DNA of 64,000 nucleotides from IMG/VR virus record IMGVR_UViG_3300045988_046531; one strand, 5' to 3'. The DNA comes from a virus. Positions 16,548 through 19,185 of the stretch are shown one piece after another. The first letter of the stretch is position 1. Every line of letters starts with the position of its first letter. The notes under the pieces were generated by a model. It saw nothing but the letters and a program-made list of their open reading frames with translations. It ran no database searches and was not told where the DNA came from. The translations under genes were made by a program, and so were the position numbers.

Positions 16548-16578
16548 CAGATATTGTATTTAATTATCGCAGTGTGAG

Positions 16579-16662
16579 TGGGCCCGGGAGGACTCGAACC
16601 TCCAGTCCAATTAAGGAGTAGATTTACAGTCTACGCGGCTACCAATTACCGGTTACGTGCCC
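16579..16662 (-). tRNA. tRNA-Tyr(GUA), class II
   Basis: 84 nt; anticodon stem GTAGA/TCTAC with loop CTGTAAA, long variable arm, T-arm GGAGG-TTCGAGT-CCTCC, acceptor with one mismatch. Confidence 0.6.
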
Positions 16663-16907
16663 GAATCACACAATCCATATTAACTGTGAATTGTGAGTGC
16701 AAAGGTAATGAATCTTCCCCACATGTAAAAGTTAATATGTATTAAATACGATAGAAGTTTGCTCGGTATTAAACTAAGCTCACATATTCTCTCGAACCGA
16801 TGAGCTTAGTAGTTATTCAACAATTGCAGATACTTTAACTCGTAATAATGACTATGAGTCGAGATAGAAATGACACTGCATATGTTGAAAGAATCATATT
16901 AATAAAA

Positions 16908-16990
16908 TGGTGTAGAGATAACCAGATTCGAACTGATGTTCTTCTAAAGATTGACTTTAGCTGTTCTACCACTGAACTATATCTCTATCC
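16908..16990 (-). ncRNA. non-canonical tRNA-like RNA (D-arm GTTC-AGTGGTA-GAAC, T-loop TTCGAAT, anticodon-like loop GTCAATC giving CAA, 7-8-bp acceptor AGAGATA/TATCTCT followed by ACACCA rather than NCCA)
   Basis: Read from the reverse complement; it sits about 160 nt downstream of the Ro60-like CDS on the same strand. Confidence 0.4.
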
Positions 16991-17149
16991 AGTCCCTATG
17001 GAATCATCCAATAAATTCCCACCTAGTGTTACTAGATATGCACAAAGATTACTATACCAAATATGCGCTCTTCTCCATGCATAATGAAATCTATCTTCTA
17101 TCCAATCAGAACATTAATTCAACTATTAAATAAACGGTGCGCGAAATAC

Positions 17150-18844
17150 TTAGACCTTCACAGGCTTCTTCTGCACGCTTGCATTCTTCTTGACAACATC
17201 CTTCTCTAGAATCATCATATTAAGCAACTCTTGATTCATAGCATGCTTAAAGATGTCTCTAGTGGTTTTAGGCACCTGGAACCTCTTCTCTCCAGTAATA
17301 AATGAGGATGTTGAATTATTAAGTCCATTTACTAAGAAGCAATTTGACACTCCTGGAACCAAAGCCACATTAGGTCTTCCCTTATATGCTAAAGGAACTC
17401 TCCAAATGATAACTTTGAATGCTCTTACAAATTCCTTACTGAAATTTGCTTTAAGCAGTCTTTGCTTAAATTCCACGAATGCTTGGTTGTTCAACTTGGT
17501 AAAATATGTATGGTTAGTAATTACCACACAGCCTCTAGGGAACTCTCCTTCATCCACACCATAATCTTCTTTCATTTTACACAGCATTTCTGCTATATTA
17601 ATAATAGAAGGATTCTGGCATAATGCTTCTTCTTTGTCAGATTTCCATTTCTCAATGACATTCTGACCTTTGAACTTACGTAGAACCATGTTATCCTCTA
17701 ACACGGCATAGGAGTTCTTGAATATTGTAGGAAGTAATTCAGAATGATATAAAGCATATGCTTTACCCAAACTGTAAGCAGATGTTTCGCTATTCTCTAT
17801 CTCACCATTAGCAGAATGACTTATATCTCTTACTACCAACAACGGAGCTACTCTATTGCGTTTAGCATTATCAACAAATACATTGAAACTTGCATTAATA
17901 GAAGTTTCCATAAATTCTGGAATCTCTTCGGCAATTTTATCCAATCCGTATGGTTTGAACAGAGTATGTAGAAATCCGCTATTAGAGGGTTTCTTACGGT
18001 TCTTCAACCAGTTCTGATACTTCTCTTTAAGACCTTGATGTTTGAGGAATTTAGAGCCTACTAGCTGTGCCAGCGCCTTTCCAGTAACAGTGTCAAAATC
18101 GATTTCCAAGAATTTCTTTTGACTGATTAACTGCTGCCATTGGGCTGCTTTCCCGCTATTCTTCATCTTCCTATATTTACGATAGGTTGAATAGTCTCCT
18201 TCATCCTTAGGTTTACCATAAAGGCCTTCCGCCAAGAATTTGGCTACTGTGTTACGTGCTTTTGCCTCATCTGTCTTACATGCAACACTGGAACGAACAC
18301 GAGGAAGATACTTCTTTACTAAATCACATGTCTGACCGTTGGCAAGACCTGCGAATATGACTTTCTTGAAGAAGTCCCAATCCAATCTGTGCTTAAAGCC
18401 ATGGAGTTGAACATCTAAAGCCATCATAGTAATGAAATCTTTCCAGCATCCAGCTGCTGCAAAATAAGCAATGTTGGCATGGAATGTGGGTTTGTGATAG
18501 ATTGCCAACCACAACATTCTCATTATACCTTCATTCTTCAAACCTTCTCCTTGCTGTGTATCAAGTTGTATAACTCCTTCCGGGGTAATTATTCTACATT
18601 TACGAGTTATCATTCTCGTATATGCAGTAAACTTAGTACATAGTAATGGATTAGCTTTCCATAAAGGATACATATCTTTAGCCACTTGCACGTAGGTACG
18701 TGGCTGAAGACATTTCTTAAGATTAACAAACTGGTCTATGAATAACTGATTATTATCCACAAACTTAGGTTTATTCTCATCCCGCCTTTGACGTGCGGCA
18801 TTAGGGTAAGGCCTCCTTGGCCTTTGTGCTCCTTTCATTTCCAT
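17150..18844 (-). CDS. Ro60/TROVE-like protein with a C-terminal vWA domain (MIDAS DISHS); assignment tentative
   Basis: 564 aa; LLVVRDISHSANGE matches a vWA DxSxS MIDAS at about the position of the Ro60 vWA domain; MRMLWLAIY resembles the Ro60 MLFALAI segment; size fits Ro60 (about 540 aa). No alignment was run. Confidence 0.4.
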   Translation of the reverse strand: MEMKGAQRPRRPYPNAARQRRDENKPKFVDNNQLFIDQFVNLKKCLQPRTYVQVAKDMYPLWKANPLLCTKFTAYTRMITRKCRIITPEGVIQLDTQQGEGLKNEGIMRMLWLAIYHKPTFHANIAYFAAAGCWKDFITMMALDVQLHGFKHRLDWDFFKKVIFAGLANGQTCDLVKKYLPRVRSSVACKTDEAKARNTVAKFLAEGLYGKPKDEGDYSTYRKYRKMKNSGKAAQWQQLISQKKFLEIDFDTVTGKALAQLVGSKFLKHQGLKEKYQNWLKNRKKPSNSGFLHTLFKPYGLDKIAEEIPEFMETSINASFNVFVDNAKRNRVAPLLVVRDISHSANGEIENSETSAYSLGKAYALYHSELLPTIFKNSYAVLEDNMVLRKFKGQNVIEKWKSDKEEALCQNPSIINIAEMLCKMKEDYGVDEGEFPRGCVVITNHTYFTKLNNQAFVEFKQRLLKANFSKEFVRAFKVIIWRVPLAYKGRPNVALVPGVSNCFLVNGLNNSTSSFITGEKRFQVPKTTRDIFKHAMNQELLNMMILEKDVVKKNASVQKKPVKV

Positions 18845-19185
18845 CTCTTTGTTTAAATTTATTGTTATGAGAGTCTTTCTTTATTCTAAACAATAAACAA
18901 GCGGCATTACGGCAATCGGACATACGTTAACCCGCTCGCCACTTACAGACCGTAATGCACACTTGACCAGGCAGGAAAGAGGTTTGCTTGGTTACCTGCC
19001 CCACAATATTGATTTGCATAGTGGGGCTACGAGGATTCTCTCTACTCGTGATGCTATAAATCGTCTTTTGACGCAAGCACAGGTTTCAACTCTTTAATAT
19101 AGCCTTTAAGTCACAGATGCATTCTAGACTACATCTGCTGGTTCTTCAGACCAAGTTTGCTACCACTACTCGTCAATAGTGGATT

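What the first reader, a model, noticed from the sequence alone, without database searches (positions are those of the whole stretch)
16560..19185. Ro60/TROVE-like vWA protein flanked by a tRNA-like RNA and a GC-rich multi-hairpin non-coding region
The 564-aa product ends in a vWA domain with a DISHS MIDAS at the position expected for Ro60, and has a MLWLAIY segment resembling Ro60. Bacterial and phage Ro60 orthologs are encoded next to their Y-RNA partners, and some bacterial Y RNAs contain a tRNA-like module. Here a non-canonical tRNA-like RNA (16908-16990) lies 160 nt downstream on the same strand. A 340-nt ORF-free region upstream (18845-19185) is GC-enriched with at least five strong hairpins: GCATTACGG/CCGTAATGC, GGCAGG/CCTGCC, CCCCAC/GTGGGG, CGAG/CTCG and GCGTC/GACGC. 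It also contains CACTTGACCAGG, reminiscent of the conserved CACUUGAC of Y-RNA Ro-binding stems. This is a tentative Ro60 / Y-RNA-like module.
Basis: inference. Interest (0 to 1): 0.6.

Follow-up and report, generated by a model that had tools for sequence, protein, structure and literature searches.

The report
Hidden hammerhead ribozyme before Ro60-like gene
The structured non-coding stretch in front of this phage's Ro60-like gene is most likely not a Y RNA but a large, interrupted hammerhead self-cleaving ribozyme, of which the orphan Rfam motif RAGATH-34 is only the front part.

Summary
The sequence features are real. The Ro60/Y-RNA reading is only half right.

**Protein (17150-18844, minus strand).**
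- It belongs to the uncharacterised DUF2828+DUF7788 family and has an invariant DxSxS MIDAS motif.
- No Pfam TROVE hit was found.
- It does match phrog_850, the PHROG that also holds the true mycobacteriophage Ro60.
- I call it Ro60-like in fold and a probable distant relative, not a proven member.

**Downstream "tRNA-like RNA".** It is a tRNA gene, the first of a roughly 20-gene array.

**Upstream 341-nt region.**
- It carries Rfam RAGATH-34 (120.6 bits).
- Comparison with about 50 distinct copies shows that RAGATH-34 is the 5' part of a type I hammerhead-like ribozyme.
- The core is invariant: CUGANGA, GAA, A15.1-U16.1 and GUH.
- Stem I covaries at 6 of 6 pairs, stem III at 3 of 5, and there is a covarying pseudoknot.
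- Stem III encloses 64-244 nt; in one relative this includes a tRNA scoring above Rfam's threshold, and degenerate cloverleaves read by eye in others.
- Predicted cleavage is between A18993 and A18992.

**Association with the gene.** The same RNA precedes unrelated genes in other phages, and distant DUF2828 loci lack it. No Y-RNA model hits the window, although a positive control does hit. Self-cleavage is untested.

The parts
17150..18844 (-). Gene for a 564-aa DUF2828+DUF7788 protein: helical-repeat N-terminal part (about residues 30-330) plus C-terminal vWA domain (about 335-545). Ro60-like in overall fold.
17813..17827 (-). MIDAS motif D-I-S-H-S (residues 340-344) of the vWA domain.
   Evidence: D340, S342 and S344 are invariant in 44 sequences. 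This stretch is the only part aligned to true Ro60 by hhalign.
18987..19182 (-). Whole hammerhead-like (type I) ribozyme, from the P1 hairpin to the 3' strand of stem I.
   Evidence: Parse and coordinates. Covariation. Shuffle, swap and H17 tests.
19076..19182 (-). Rfam RF03103 RAGATH-34 match, which is the 5' portion of the ribozyme.
   Evidence: 120.6 bits against a gathering score of 60.7, E = 4.9e-19, full model 1-107.
19163..19182 (-). P1 hairpin CCACUAUUGACGAGUAGUGG, starting 4 nt after the stop codon of the upstream ORF.
   Evidence: Rfam consensus structure. Coordinates.
19159..19162 (-). 5' strand (UAGC) of Rfam stem P2, which pairs with GCUA at 19100-19103. In the hammerhead reading this is a pseudoknot between the 5' flank of stem I and the loop of stem II.
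   Evidence: All 5 of 5 pairs show changes on both sides; 86% of cells are paired in 25 sequences.
19150..19155 (-). Stem I, 5' strand CUUGGU; pairs with 18987-18992.
   Evidence: All 6 of 6 pairs show changes on both sides; 93% paired.
19143..19149 (-). Hammerhead core C3-A9: CUGAAGA (CUGAUGA in most relatives).
   Evidence: C, U, G, A, G and A are invariant in 25 diverse copies. N7 is U in 35, A in 18 and G in 1.
19114..19137 (-). P4 hairpin, an optional insertion between A9 and stem II. It is absent in several other phages.
   Evidence: Rfam structure. The insertion is 1-86 nt long.
19088..19112 (-). Stem II: GACUU (19108-19112) pairs with GAGUU (19088-19092). Its loop holds the P2 3' strand GCUA (19100-19103).
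   Evidence: 100% paired but invariant in sequence, so there is no covariation evidence.
19085..19087 (-). G12 A13 A14 of the hammerhead core (the GAA of GUUGAAAC).
   Evidence: Invariant in 25 copies. GTTGAAAC is the most conserved string of the element.
19080..19084 (-). Stem III, 5' strand ACCUG (A15.1, C15.2 and onward); pairs with 18994-18998.
   Evidence: A15.1-U16.1 and C15.2-G16.2 are invariant. The 3 outer pairs show changes on both sides. This stem also forms in the unconstrained MFE fold.
18999..19079 (-). Insert enclosed by stem III. It contains P5 (UGCU 19076-19079 with AGCA 19052-19055) around hairpin GCGUCAAAAGACG (19062-19074), the P6 hairpin (19027-19050, conserved loop GAGAGAAUC) and the hairpin CCCCAC...GUGGGG (18999-19026).
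   Evidence: Coordinates. The MFE fold predicts this four-way junction. Relatives carry a tRNA or a degenerate cloverleaf in place of the 13-nt hairpin.
18994..18998 (-). Stem III, 3' strand CAGGU (16.5 to 16.1).
18992..18993 (-). Predicted cleavage site: H17 = A18993, with scission between A18993 and A18992 (triplet GUA).
   Evidence: With no filter on H17, 54 distinct elements have C in 41, U in 9, A in 4 and G in 0.
18987..18992 (-). Stem I, 3' strand ACCAAG.
18845..18992 (-). Predicted 5' leader of the processed mRNA. It contains hairpin 18966-18992 (loop CCUCUUUCC), the long hairpin GCAUUACGG...CCGUAAUGC (18904-18958) and an AT-rich stretch ending in AAAGAG-AUG.
   Evidence: Sequence. Coordinates. 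Conserved in relatives with at least 63% protein identity.
Anticodon CAA, no long variable arm.
   Evidence: ARAGORN. Rfam tRNA 52.5 bits. The anticodon differs in close relatives.

Best explanation
The window comes from an abundant phage of about 180 kb. A Ro60-like gene of the DUF2828/DUF7788 family sits inside the phage's stable-RNA region, with a tmRNA upstream and a tRNA array downstream.

The 341-nt gap in front of the gene is not a Y RNA. It encodes a large, interrupted type I hammerhead-like self-cleaving ribozyme, of which the Rfam motif RAGATH-34 is the first 107 nt.

**Proposed mechanism**
1. A long transcript runs from the upstream genes through the gap.
2. The 5' part folds first: the P1 hairpin, the P2 pseudoknot strand, the stem I strand, the CUGAAGA core, stem II, GAA and the 5' strand of stem III.
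3. About 90 nt later the 3' strands of stem III (CAGGU) and stem I (ACCAAG) are made and close the three-way core.
4. The RNA then cuts itself after A18993.
5. This leaves an upstream RNA ending in a 2',3'-cyclic phosphate and a downstream mRNA for the Ro60-like protein (and probably the tRNA array) that starts with a 5'-OH at A18992.

**What is shown and what is inferred**
- Shown: the conserved core nucleotides, the covarying helices, the synteny and the fold similarity of the protein.
- Inferred: catalysis, the cleavage position, co-transcription, and any RNA-binding role of the protein.

The ribozyme is a general phage intergenic processing element that happens to precede this gene in one phage clade. 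It is not a dedicated partner RNA.
For: **RNA**
- RAGATH-34 scores 120.6 bits.
- The rest of the gap is conserved in loci whose proteins are 43-100% identical.
- The core letters C3, U4, G5, A6, G8, A9, G12, A13, A14, A15.1, C15.2, G16.2 and U16.1 are invariant in 25 diverse copies.
- Covariation on alignment A3:
  - stem I, 6 of 6 pairs with changes on both sides;
  - stem III, 3 of 5 pairs;
  - P2, 5 of 5 pairs;
  - 92.5% of cells paired, against 72.5% in shuffles (0 of 500 shuffles as high) and 29-41% when partners are slid.
- The downstream site scores 10-11 of 11 pairs in nearly all copies and is rarely matched in shuffled downstream sequence.
- Own strands score a mean of 10.1, against 8.4 for strands swapped between elements.
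- H17 is never G in 54 elements when no filter is applied.
- Stem III and its junction form in the unconstrained MFE fold.
- The element lies upstream of the gene in 49 of 51 loci with at least 43% protein identity.
- Hammerheads that flank phage genes, and pseudoknotted hammerheads, are established (PMC3088659).
- RAGATH motifs were collected at loci enriched for self-cleaving ribozymes (PMC10085705).

**Protein**.
Against: **RNA**
- No cleavage assay and no transcript data are available.
- No Rfam hammerhead model hits the window or seven related loci at E <= 5-10.
- The junction between A9 and stem II is non-canonical. There are always 1-86 extra nucleotides there, and the 10.1-11.1 pair is G-U rather than G-C.
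- Stem II never varies, so it has no covariation support.
- The hammerhead fold without the pseudoknot is 7.5 kcal/mol above the MFE.
- In the window clade an alternative hairpin (Rfam P3) uses the same stem I strand.
- The 3' strand in the alignment was chosen by complementarity. This biases the pair counts, although the shuffle and swap controls address it.

**Protein**
- There is no TROVE HMM hit.
- The TM-score to Ro60 is only 0.30.
- The N-terminal domain modelled alone finds only generic HEAT/ARM folds.
Confidence: 0.7

Rival explanations
1. The protein is a Ro60 orthologue. The flanking RNAs (the upstream multi-hairpin region and/or the downstream tRNA-like RNA) are its Y-RNA partners and form a Ro60/Y-RNA particle.
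For: - The protein has a Ro60-like fold and belongs to the same PHROG as a true phage Ro60.
- True phage Ro60 genes have Y-like RNAs just upstream on the same strand (PMC4201824, PMC12135203).
- One relative carries a tRNA that passes Rfam's threshold inside the upstream RNA (L025, 52.1 bits).
- Others carry degenerate cloverleaves with a CGAA-containing segment, read by eye and not detected by the tRNA model. Bacterial Y RNAs contain a tRNA-like domain and a CGAA motif.
- The RNA is linked to the gene in 49 of 51 loci of the clade.
Against: - No Y_RNA or YrlA hit at E <= 10 in the window, nor in six relatives that carry the cloverleaf module. The control locus is hit.
- The window itself lacks the tRNA-like module.
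- The whole region is accounted for by a hammerhead architecture.
- The same RNA precedes unrelated small genes in at least 13 other phage contigs with no DUF2828 gene nearby.
- 23 of 24 distant DUF2828 loci lack it, and two loci of the same clade have lost it (L051, L052).
- CACTTGACC is on the wrong strand.
- The downstream RNA is a tRNA in a tRNA array.
Confidence: 0.1
2. The upstream region is a structured but non-catalytic RNA. It could be a cis-acting 5' leader that controls translation or stability of the downstream gene, or a stable small RNA (RAGATH-34 as filed in Rfam). On this view the hammerhead resemblance is a relic or a coincidence.
For: - Rfam files RAGATH-34 as an sRNA of unknown function.
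- The junction between A9 and stem II is non-canonical, and stem II, its loop and the P6 loop are invariant. This suggests constraints other than catalysis, for example protein binding.
- Alternative pairings compete with stem I (Rfam P3; hairpin 18966-18992).
- The loop sequence CUCUUU is complementary to AAAGAG next to the start codon (sequence).
Against: - Every core nucleotide needed for hammerhead catalysis is invariant.
- H17 is never G.
- Stems I and III abut the core exactly as in hammerheads and covary.
- This combination is hard to keep without selection for the active fold.
Confidence: 0.15
3. The protein is simply a vWA/MIDAS protein with a helical N-terminal domain and no RNA role, for example an assembly or host-interaction factor. 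Its similarity to Ro60 would then reflect only the shared vWA domain and generic helical repeats.
For: - There is no TROVE HMM hit.
- hhalign aligns only 36 columns around the MIDAS motif.
- TM-scores to Ro60 are 0.30.
Against: - Foldseek aligns 573-598 columns, the full length, to Ro60 with probability 1.00.
- The phrog_850 match spans residues 95-517, not only the vWA domain.
- The family's genes sit next to tRNA or tmRNA genes in several unrelated phage lineages.
Confidence: 0.25

Closest known systems
Type I hammerhead ribozymes, including pseudoknotted and phage intergenic hammerheads (PMC3088659; PMC11300833) and the discontinuous mammalian hammerheads with very large loops (mentioned in PMC3088659)
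   Same: - The order is core CUGANGA, then stem II, then GAA, then stem III, then GUH and the cleavage site, with stem I open.
- All invariant core nucleotides are present.
- A15.1-U16.1 is kept, and H17 is never G.
- A base-paired tertiary contact links the stem I side to the loop of stem II.
- The location is between phage genes.
   Different: - There are 1-86 nt between A9 and G10.1.
- The 10.1-11.1 pair is G-U.
- Stem II and its loop are invariant in sequence.
- Stem III encloses a 64-244-nt multi-helix insert, which holds a tRNA (Rfam 52.1 bits) in one relative.
- No Rfam hammerhead model detects the element.
- Catalysis has not been tested.
RAGATH-34 RNA (Rfam RF03103)
   Same: The window matches the full model at 120.6 bits. 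The window's clade is evidently what the Rfam seed was built from.
   Different: - The Rfam model stops at the 5' strand of stem III.
- It treats the CUGANGA core as a hairpin loop (P3) and files the RNA as an sRNA of unknown function.
- The conserved 3' half (P5, P6, the stem III and stem I 3' strands, GUH) lies outside the model.
- Copies in other phages score 32 bits or less.
Ro60 / Rsr (TROVE + vWA_Ro60) with Y RNAs (YrlA), including phage orthologues such as Bxz1 gp220 and Thermus phage phiLo Ro60 (PMC4201824, PMC12135203)
   Same: - Similar size (564 aa against 460-552 aa).
- A helical-repeat N-terminal part plus a C-terminal vWA domain with a DxSxS MIDAS motif.
- Same PHROG (phrog_850).
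- Best structural match.
- Phage-encoded, with a long structured non-coding region directly upstream on the same strand.
   Different: - No TROVE HMM match.
- About 10% sequence identity.
- TM-score 0.30.
- No Y-RNA covariance hit.
- The upstream RNA is explained as a ribozyme and is not specific to the gene.
DUF2828 (PF11443) + DUF7788 (PF25043) proteins, for example 'DUF2828 family protein' of Bacillus phages Tsamsa, Izhevsk and Nate
   Same: The domain architecture is the same. The window protein's close homologues pass or approach the Pfam thresholds, and tblastn finds these annotated phage genes.
   Different: The window protein itself is below the Pfam thresholds (DUF2828 E = 0.011). No function is known for the family.
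HDV-like theta ribozymes next to tRNAs in recoded gut phages (PMC10879173)
   Same: Both are small self-cleaving ribozymes embedded in the tRNA regions of gut-type phages that carry suppressor tRNAs. Sub-threshold HDV-like hits occur in the tRNA arrays of relatives.
   Different: This is a different ribozyme class (hammerhead-like, not HDV-like). Here a tRNA, where present, lies inside a ribozyme helix rather than next to the ribozyme.

Membership tests
Hammerhead ribozyme | Conserved core C3 U4 G5 A6 N7 G8 A9 | tested here: met
   CUGAAGA at 19149-19143. C, U, G, A, G and A are invariant in 25 diverse copies. N7 is U, A or G.
Hammerhead ribozyme | G12 A13 A14 followed directly by the A15.1-U16.1 pair | tested here: met
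   GAA at 19087-19085. A15.1-U16.1 and C15.2-G16.2 are invariant in 25 of 25 copies.
Hammerhead ribozyme | Cleavage-site nucleotide H17 is never G, and stem I starts right after it | tested here: met
   GUC in 41, GUU in 9, GUA in 4 and GUG in 0 of 54 elements, with no filter on H17. In the window it is GUA, with A18993.
Hammerhead ribozyme | Three helices around the core, supported by covariation | tested here: inconclusive
   Stem I has 6 of 6 and stem III has 3 of 5 pairs with changes on both sides. Stem II is always paired but never varies, so it carries no information.
Hammerhead ribozyme | Stem II (G10.1-C11.1) follows A9 directly | tested here: not met
   There are 1-86 nt (median 30) between A9 and G10.1, and the closing pair is G-U. 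A single extra nucleotide at this position is tolerated in a viroid hammerhead; that is from my own knowledge and was not checked here.
Hammerhead ribozyme | Match to a curated hammerhead covariance model | tested here: not met
   No hammerhead family at E <= 10 in 16300-19400, nor at E <= 5 in seven related loci.
Hammerhead ribozyme | Site-specific self-cleavage | not testable with these tools
   This needs in vitro transcription or end-specific RNA-seq.
RAGATH-34 (RF03103) | Score at or above Rfam's gathering threshold | tested here: met
   120.6 bits against 60.7, model positions 1-107 of 107.
Ro60 / TROVE | TROVE domain (PF05731) match | tested here: not met
   None of 44 family members match at E <= 10. 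The control, Bxz1 gp220, matches at E = 9.4e-50. hhalign of A1 against TROVE alignment A5 does not align the N-terminal domain.
Ro60 / TROVE | C-terminal vWA domain with a MIDAS motif, related to the Ro60 vWA | tested here: met
   DxSxS is invariant. DUF7788 is found in 37 of 44 members. vWA_Ro60 gives weak hits in 20 of 44 (best E = 0.0023). hhalign aligns the MIDAS stretch to Ro60 at E = 1.8e-4.
Ro60 / TROVE | Overall fold: a HEAT-repeat ring closed by the vWA domain | tested here: inconclusive
- Ro60 is also the top hit by Foldseek (E = 1.6e-4 and 8e-4, probability 1.00, full length).
- However, the TM-score is 0.30 and the model pTM is 0.53.
- The N-domain model alone (pLDDT 67) finds only generic HEAT/ARM folds.
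Ro60 / TROVE | Same remote-homology cluster as known phage Ro60 | tested here: met
   phrog_850 matches the window protein at E = 1.4e-11 over residues 95-517 and Bxz1 gp220 at E = 2.8e-140.
Y RNA / YrlA | Match to the Rfam Y_RNA or YrlA model near the gene | tested here: not met
   No hit at E <= 10 in 16300-19400 or in six related loci. The positive control gives YrlA at 32.5 bits, E = 2.3e-4, upstream of Bxz1 gp220.
Y RNA / YrlA | A stem formed by the 5' and 3' ends that carries the Ro-binding bulged helix or CGAA motif | tested here: not met
   The window has no such stem. CACTTGACC is on the opposite strand. A CGAA-containing segment occurs only in relatives, inside a tRNA-type cloverleaf.
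Y RNA / YrlA | Physical binding by the Ro60-like protein | not testable with these tools
   This needs RIP/CLIP or gel-shift assays.
tRNA (for 16912-16986) | Cloverleaf scoring above the Rfam tRNA threshold | tested here: met
   52.5 bits against 29. ARAGORN calls Leu-CAA. Without a long variable arm, Leu identity is doubtful.

The most novel reading that the evidence does not exclude
The ribozyme and the Ro60-like protein form one functional unit.
- Self-cleavage (plus RNase P/Z acting on the embedded tRNA-like module in relatives) would release a stable structured RNA of about 190 nt ending in a 2',3'-cyclic phosphate.
- This RNA would serve as the Y-RNA-type partner or substrate of the DUF2828 protein.
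- That would make it a ribozyme-made Y-RNA analogue, linking a Ro60-like quality-control protein to the phage's own tRNA and tmRNA production.
Probability: 0.1. Interest if true: 0.85.

Novelty: new variant of a known kind. Interest (0 to 1): 0.58.

Why it matters
**An orphan RNA family gets a testable function.** RAGATH-34 has been in Rfam as an RNA of unknown function. Showing that it is the front part of an interrupted hammerhead gives it a concrete function and a predicted cleavage site. It also explains why it was found at ribozyme-rich loci.

**It widens what a natural hammerhead can look like.**
- Tens of nucleotides can be inserted between A9 and stem II.
- Stem II is invariant.
- A multi-helix insert of 64-244 nt sits inside stem III. 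In one relative it includes a tRNA that scores above Rfam's threshold.

Such elements escape current covariance models, so hammerheads may be under-counted in phage genomes.

**The protein result is smaller.**
- It ties the large uncharacterised DUF2828/DUF7788 family (about 2,700 clusters at 50% identity) to Ro60 by fold.
- Phage members of this family repeatedly sit in tRNA/tmRNA gene clusters. This is a lead for their function.

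Tried and rejected
**Protein-level searches that gave nothing or only weak results**
- Pfam TROVE and NCBIfam searches found no hit.
- Sequence and profile searches of the PDB found no Ro60.
- hhalign of the family against one true Ro60, and against a 27-sequence TROVE alignment, aligned only the MIDAS stretch.
- A separate AlphaFold model of the N-terminal domain, from a 10-sequence alignment, reached only pLDDT 67. 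It returned generic helical-repeat folds.
- The AFDB Foldseek library was unavailable.

**RNA-level searches**
- Y_RNA and YrlA models gave no hit in the window or in relatives.
- Rfam hammerhead models gave no hit.

**Ideas considered and dropped**
- The conserved tail GTTGAAACC might be a repeated promoter-like signal. There is only one copy in 64 kb.
- Sigma-70 promoter and terminator scans were not above chance, and none fell in the gap.
- The CUGAUGA-containing Rfam P3 hairpin might be a k-turn or C/D-box-like element. I dropped this once stem I was found.
- The RNA might be specific to the DUF2828 gene. This was rejected by pattern scans.

**Searches that led nowhere**
- The DNA search of annotated phages found only tRNA matches.
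- Neighbouring genes have no informative domains.
- The bacterial genome scan found only two true copies, on short MAG contigs, so no host could be assigned.
- The literature held here says nothing on RAGATH-34. The supplement of the paper that described these candidate RNA motifs is not held as text.

Full report
**1. What is in the window**

The 64-kb window is phage-like.
- It has 23 ARAGORN tRNA calls, including a CTA suppressor, and a tmRNA at 20709-21264. Almost all are on the minus strand.
- The finding's ORF is 17150-18844 on the minus strand, 564 aa.
- Exactly this protein is on record on 717 contigs of up to 260 kb, always named 'hypothetical protein'. Related contigs are mostly about 180 kb.

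**2. The protein**

*Family*
- The window protein alone gives only a weak Pfam DUF2828 hit (E = 0.011) and no TROVE hit.
- Its homologues (39-99% identity) carry DUF2828 (43 of 44) and DUF7788 (37 of 44). vWA_Ro60 gives weak hits in 20 of 44 (best E = 0.0023). TROVE is found in none.
- The DxSxS MIDAS motif is invariant. In the window it is D340-I-S-H-S344, nt 17827-17813.
- Annotated phage relatives are 'DUF2828 family protein' or 'RNA-binding protein' in Bacillus phages.
- The family has 2,725 clusters at 50% identity with E <= 0.001.

*Evidence for a link to Ro60*
- phrog_850 ('RNA-binding protein') matches residues 95-517 with E = 1.4e-11.
- The known mycobacteriophage Ro60, Bxz1 gp220, is TROVE E = 9.4e-50 and vWA_Ro60 E = 4.3e-54. 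It falls in the same PHROG at E = 2.8e-140.
- An AlphaFold model from a 44-sequence alignment has pLDDT 79.4 and pTM 0.53. It shows a helical N-terminal part and a vWA domain.

- Foldseek finds only two PDB hits with E < 1e-3. Both are full-length Ro60, with probability 1.00 but TM-score 0.30.

*Evidence against*
- Sequence and profile searches of the PDB find no Ro60.
- hhalign against gp220, or against a 27-sequence TROVE alignment, aligns only 36-37 columns at the MIDAS motif (probability 22-49%).
- The N-terminal domain modelled alone (pLDDT 67.5) finds only generic HEAT/ARM folds, and no Ro60 in the top 60.

*Verdict on the protein.* It is Ro60-like in architecture and probably a distant relative. 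It is not demonstrably a TROVE-family member.

**3. The downstream RNA**

- The 'tRNA-like RNA' is a tRNA: Rfam 52.5 bits at 16913-16986; ARAGORN Leu-CAA at 16912-16986.
- It is followed by tRNA-Tyr (16578-16662), another tRNA (16421-16491) and the rest of the array.
- It is odd in two ways. It has no long variable arm, and its anticodon loop differs among close relatives: CAA in the window and L007, UGA in L001, irregular in L023.
- In a tRNA array, however, its presence is no evidence for a Y RNA.

**4. The upstream gap, first pass**

- Rfam places RAGATH-34 (RF03103) at 19076-19182 on the minus strand, at 120.6 bits against a threshold of 60.7.
- No Y_RNA or YrlA hit appears at E <= 10.
- As a positive control, the same library finds YrlA (32.5 bits, E = 2.3e-4) upstream of Bxz1 gp220 on the gene strand.
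- The gene strand of the gap folds better than shuffles (z = -3.56).
- GC enrichment is modest: 41.6% against 37.0%.

**5. Comparative anatomy**

I fetched 6 loci by exact protein and 80 by protein pattern from IMG/VR.
- All loci of the clade keep a gap of about 320-400 nt before the gene, and it is conserved well beyond the Rfam model.
- A DNA pattern for the most conserved strings (GACUUAA...AGUUGAAAC) also found the RNA in at least 13 other phage contigs. There, no DUF2828-like ORF lies on the same strand in the DNA held.

Lining these copies up exposed a common plan:
- a 4-5-bp helix (Rfam P2);
- an A-rich linker;
- a 6-nt strand;
- CUGAUGA;
- an optional hairpin;
- GACUU, then a loop holding the P2 3' strand, then AAGUU;
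- GAAAC;
- a helix enclosing a variable insert;
- a hairpin with loop GAGAAAAUC;
- GUUAAA;
- (A/U)GGU followed by C, U or A;
- finally the complement of the 6-nt strand.

This is the connectivity of a type I hammerhead.

**6. Tests of the hammerhead reading**

*(a) Site search.* For every distinct copy I searched 520 nt downstream. I looked for the position that best pairs with both the 5 nt after GAA and the 6 nt before CUGANGA.
- Nearly all copies score 10-11 of 11 pairs.
- The site always lies in the same conserved context.
- Shuffled downstream sequence rarely reaches that score; for most copies, 0-2% of 200 shuffles do.

*(b) Covariation.* On a spliced alignment of 25 diverse copies (A3), counts for the named structure were:

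| Helix | Pairs with changes on both sides | Cells paired |
|---|---|---|
| Stem I | 6 of 6 | 93% |
| Stem III | 3 of 5 (the two invariant pairs are A15.1-U16.1 and C15.2-G16.2) | 90% |
| P2 | 5 of 5 | 86% |
| Stem II | 0 of 5 (invariant in sequence) | 100% |

- Overall, 92.5% of cells are paired, against 72.5% in shuffles (0 of 500 as high).
- When partners are slid by 1-3 columns, only 29-41% are paired.

*(c) Core.* The core letters are invariant.

*(d) H17.* With no filter on H17, 54 distinct elements have GUC in 41, GUU in 9, GUA in 4 and GUG in 0.

*(e) Swap control.* Own strands score a mean of 10.1 of 11. Strands taken from an element with a different stem I score 8.4, and only 10% of swaps reach 10.

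*(f) Thermodynamic fold.* Stem III and its four-way junction appear in the unconstrained MFE fold of the window. Forcing all three stems costs 7.5 kcal/mol without counting the pseudoknot.

*Caveats*
- The 3' piece was picked by complementarity, which is why controls (a) and (e) were run.
- Three rows are out of register for P2.
- Stem II has no covariation.
- There are always 1-86 nt between A9 and G10.1, and the 10.1-11.1 pair is G-U.
- No Rfam hammerhead model sees the element.
- Cleavage has not been tested.

**7. The window's element in coordinates (minus strand)**

| Part | Coordinates |
|---|---|
| P1 hairpin | 19182-19163 |
| P2 | 19162-19159 with 19103-19100 |
| Stem I | 19155-19150 with 18992-18987 |
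| Core CUGAAGA | 19149-19143 |
| P4 hairpin | 19137-19114 |
| Stem II | 19112-19108 with 19092-19088 |
| GAA (G12-A14) | 19087-19085 |
| Stem III | 19084-19080 with 18998-18994 |
| H17 | A18993 |
| Predicted cut | between 18993 and 18992 |

  - GCGUC/GACG, CGAG/CUCG and CCCCAC/GUGGGG are the insert inside stem III.
  - GGCAGG/CCUGCC overlaps the stem III 3' strand and the cleavage site, so it is an alternative pairing.
  - GCAUUACGG/CCGUAAUGC lies in the leader after the cut.
- Rfam's P3 hairpin (UGGU-CUGAAGA-ACCA) uses the same strand as stem I. It may be a competing, inactive fold in this clade.

**8. Is the RNA tied to the protein?**

- Within the clade, yes by position. The full element lies within 700 nt upstream of the gene as follows:

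| Protein identity to the window | Loci with the element |
|---|---|
| >= 99% | 17 of 17 |
| 63-68% | 10 of 10 |
| 43-45% (with enough upstream DNA) | 21 of 24 |
| 32-41% | 1 of 24 |

- L040, missed by my pattern, is recovered by Rfam. That makes 22 of 24 in the 43-45% class and 49 of 51 overall for loci with at least 43% identity.
- L051 and L052, in the same clade, have lost the element.
- The RNA also precedes unrelated small genes in other phages.
- Only two copies turned up in 185,579 bacterial and archaeal genomes, both on short MAG contigs.
- The link is therefore synteny in one phage clade, not an obligate pairing.

What does recur across DUF2828 lineages is the neighbourhood. Of 16 distant loci scanned, 13 have tRNA or tmRNA genes within about 3 kb.

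**9. The tRNA inside the ribozyme**

- In most relatives, the place of the window's 13-nt hairpin (19074-19062) is taken by a cloverleaf with covarying acceptor and T stems. This is my reading.
- In L025 it passes as a tRNA: Rfam 52.1 bits; ARAGORN Pro-AGG at 2729-2800.
- In the others, neither the tRNA model nor the YrlA model detects it.
- This is the only feature that recalls bacterial Y RNAs, which have a tRNA-like domain and a CGAA motif (PMC4201824). The window lacks it.

**10. Context from the literature held here**

- Hammerheads often flank phage genes and often use a pseudoknot between stems I and II (PMC3088659).
- A pseudoknotted hammerhead structure has been solved (PMC11300833).
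- RAGATH candidates were collected because self-cleaving ribozymes cluster near particular genes and near each other (PMC10085705).
- HDV-like theta ribozymes sit next to tRNAs in recoded gut phages (PMC10879173). Relatives of this window show sub-threshold HDV-like hits in their tRNA arrays.
- Phage Ro60 proteins with upstream Y-like RNAs are known (PMC4201824, PMC12135203).
- I found no paper in this library that mentions RAGATH-34 or calls it a hammerhead. That is not proof that it is unpublished.

**11. Verdict**

- The Ro60-like reading of the protein is reasonable but unproven as family membership.
- The Y-RNA reading is not supported.
- The best-supported account of the non-coding region is a new structural variant of the hammerhead ribozyme that processes the transcript just upstream of the Ro60-like gene. 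My confidence is about 0.7 overall: roughly 0.8 for the fold and 0.65 for actual cleavage at the predicted site.

Noticed in passing
window 14794-14866 (-), with tmRNA at 20709-21264 (-) and 23 tRNA calls across 852-21855: The window carries a tRNA with anticodon CTA, which ARAGORN labels 'Pyl' and which would read the UAG stop codon. It also carries a phage tmRNA and a large tRNA array. This suggests a phage that may recode the UAG stop codon. Relatives have the same suppressor tRNA.
   Followed up: no
window 16912-16986 (-); L007:4859-4933; L001:7415-7489; L023:4876-4950: The first tRNA after the gene keeps its arms, but its anticodon loop changes among close relatives: CAA, UGA and an irregular loop. 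It also lacks the long variable arm expected for Leu or Ser, so its decoding role is unclear.
   Followed up: partly
L025:2729-2800; also L007, L023, L006, L037 and L041 just after GTTGAAACC: Relatives carry a tRNA or a degenerate cloverleaf embedded inside stem III of the hammerhead-like element. In L025 it scores 52.1 bits with the Rfam tRNA model (ARAGORN Pro-AGG). The window, L019 and L022 have a 13-nt hairpin there instead.
   Followed up: partly
L006:7757-8548, L005:7806-8606: In the branch with 43-45% protein identity, a DUF7873 gene (E = 1.8e-30) follows the DUF2828 gene directly. It has a weak similarity to ribosomal protein L18/L5e, which binds 5S rRNA (E = 0.0015, below threshold). 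The window lacks this gene.
   Followed up: no
L025:7394-7457, L023:6938-7049: There are sub-threshold matches to the HDV-like ribozyme model (38.1 and 28.1 bits against a threshold of 44). They lie between tRNA genes of the downstream array, close to the suppressor tRNA. This recalls the published theta ribozymes.
   Followed up: no
L037:6051-6144, L041:5999-6092, L047:6042-6136, L048:6045-6137, L054:5889-5983, L032:5977-6068: A 92-97-nt tRNA-like gene sits at a fixed place in the array. ARAGORN gives it a different or undefined anticodon in each relative: AGA, AAA, CGC, CAA, 'ttag' or 'at'. Rfam tRNA scores are low, about 35-38 bits.
   Followed up: no
window 21785-21855 (-) and 7814-7917: ARAGORN calls a tRNA with a 2-nt 'anticodon' (gt) at 21785-21855; Rfam tRNA gives 49.8 bits there. 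It also makes two overlapping calls on opposite strands at 7814-7890 (+, Arg) and 7829-7917 (-, Ser). Rfam supports neither at its threshold.
   Followed up: no
L056, L057, L058, L060, L078, L079, L086: about 100-400 nt upstream of the DUF2828 gene: Distant DUF2828 loci lack the ribozyme. They share a small ORF beginning MIK(L/F)LKKA.KWYF. Several also have a T-arm-like hairpin (GAGUUCGAUUCUC) preceded by GGUG(U/A)AAUGGUU directly before the gene.
   Followed up: no
window 18966-18992 and 18845-18850 (-): After the predicted cut, the stem I 3' strand can fold into a hairpin (ACCAAGCA...UGCCUGGU). Its conserved loop contains CUCUUU (18981-18976), which is complementary to AAAGAG just before the start codon (18850-18845). 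This could couple processing to translation. The hairpin covaries in L023 and L024 by eye.
   Followed up: partly
L109:1132-1182: A twister-P1 ribozyme match (43.4 bits, below the 67.2 threshold, E = 2.5e-6) lies about 3 kb from a RAGATH-34-like element, in a phage that has no DUF2828 gene nearby. This fits the clustering of self-cleaving ribozymes.
   Followed up: no
window 19027-19050 and 19088-19112 (-), and all related copies: The P6 loop (U)GAGA(G/A)AAUC, the linker GUUAAA, and the whole of stem II with its loop are conserved in sequence across very different phages. What constrains them is unknown; it could be a tertiary contact or a protein.
   Followed up: no
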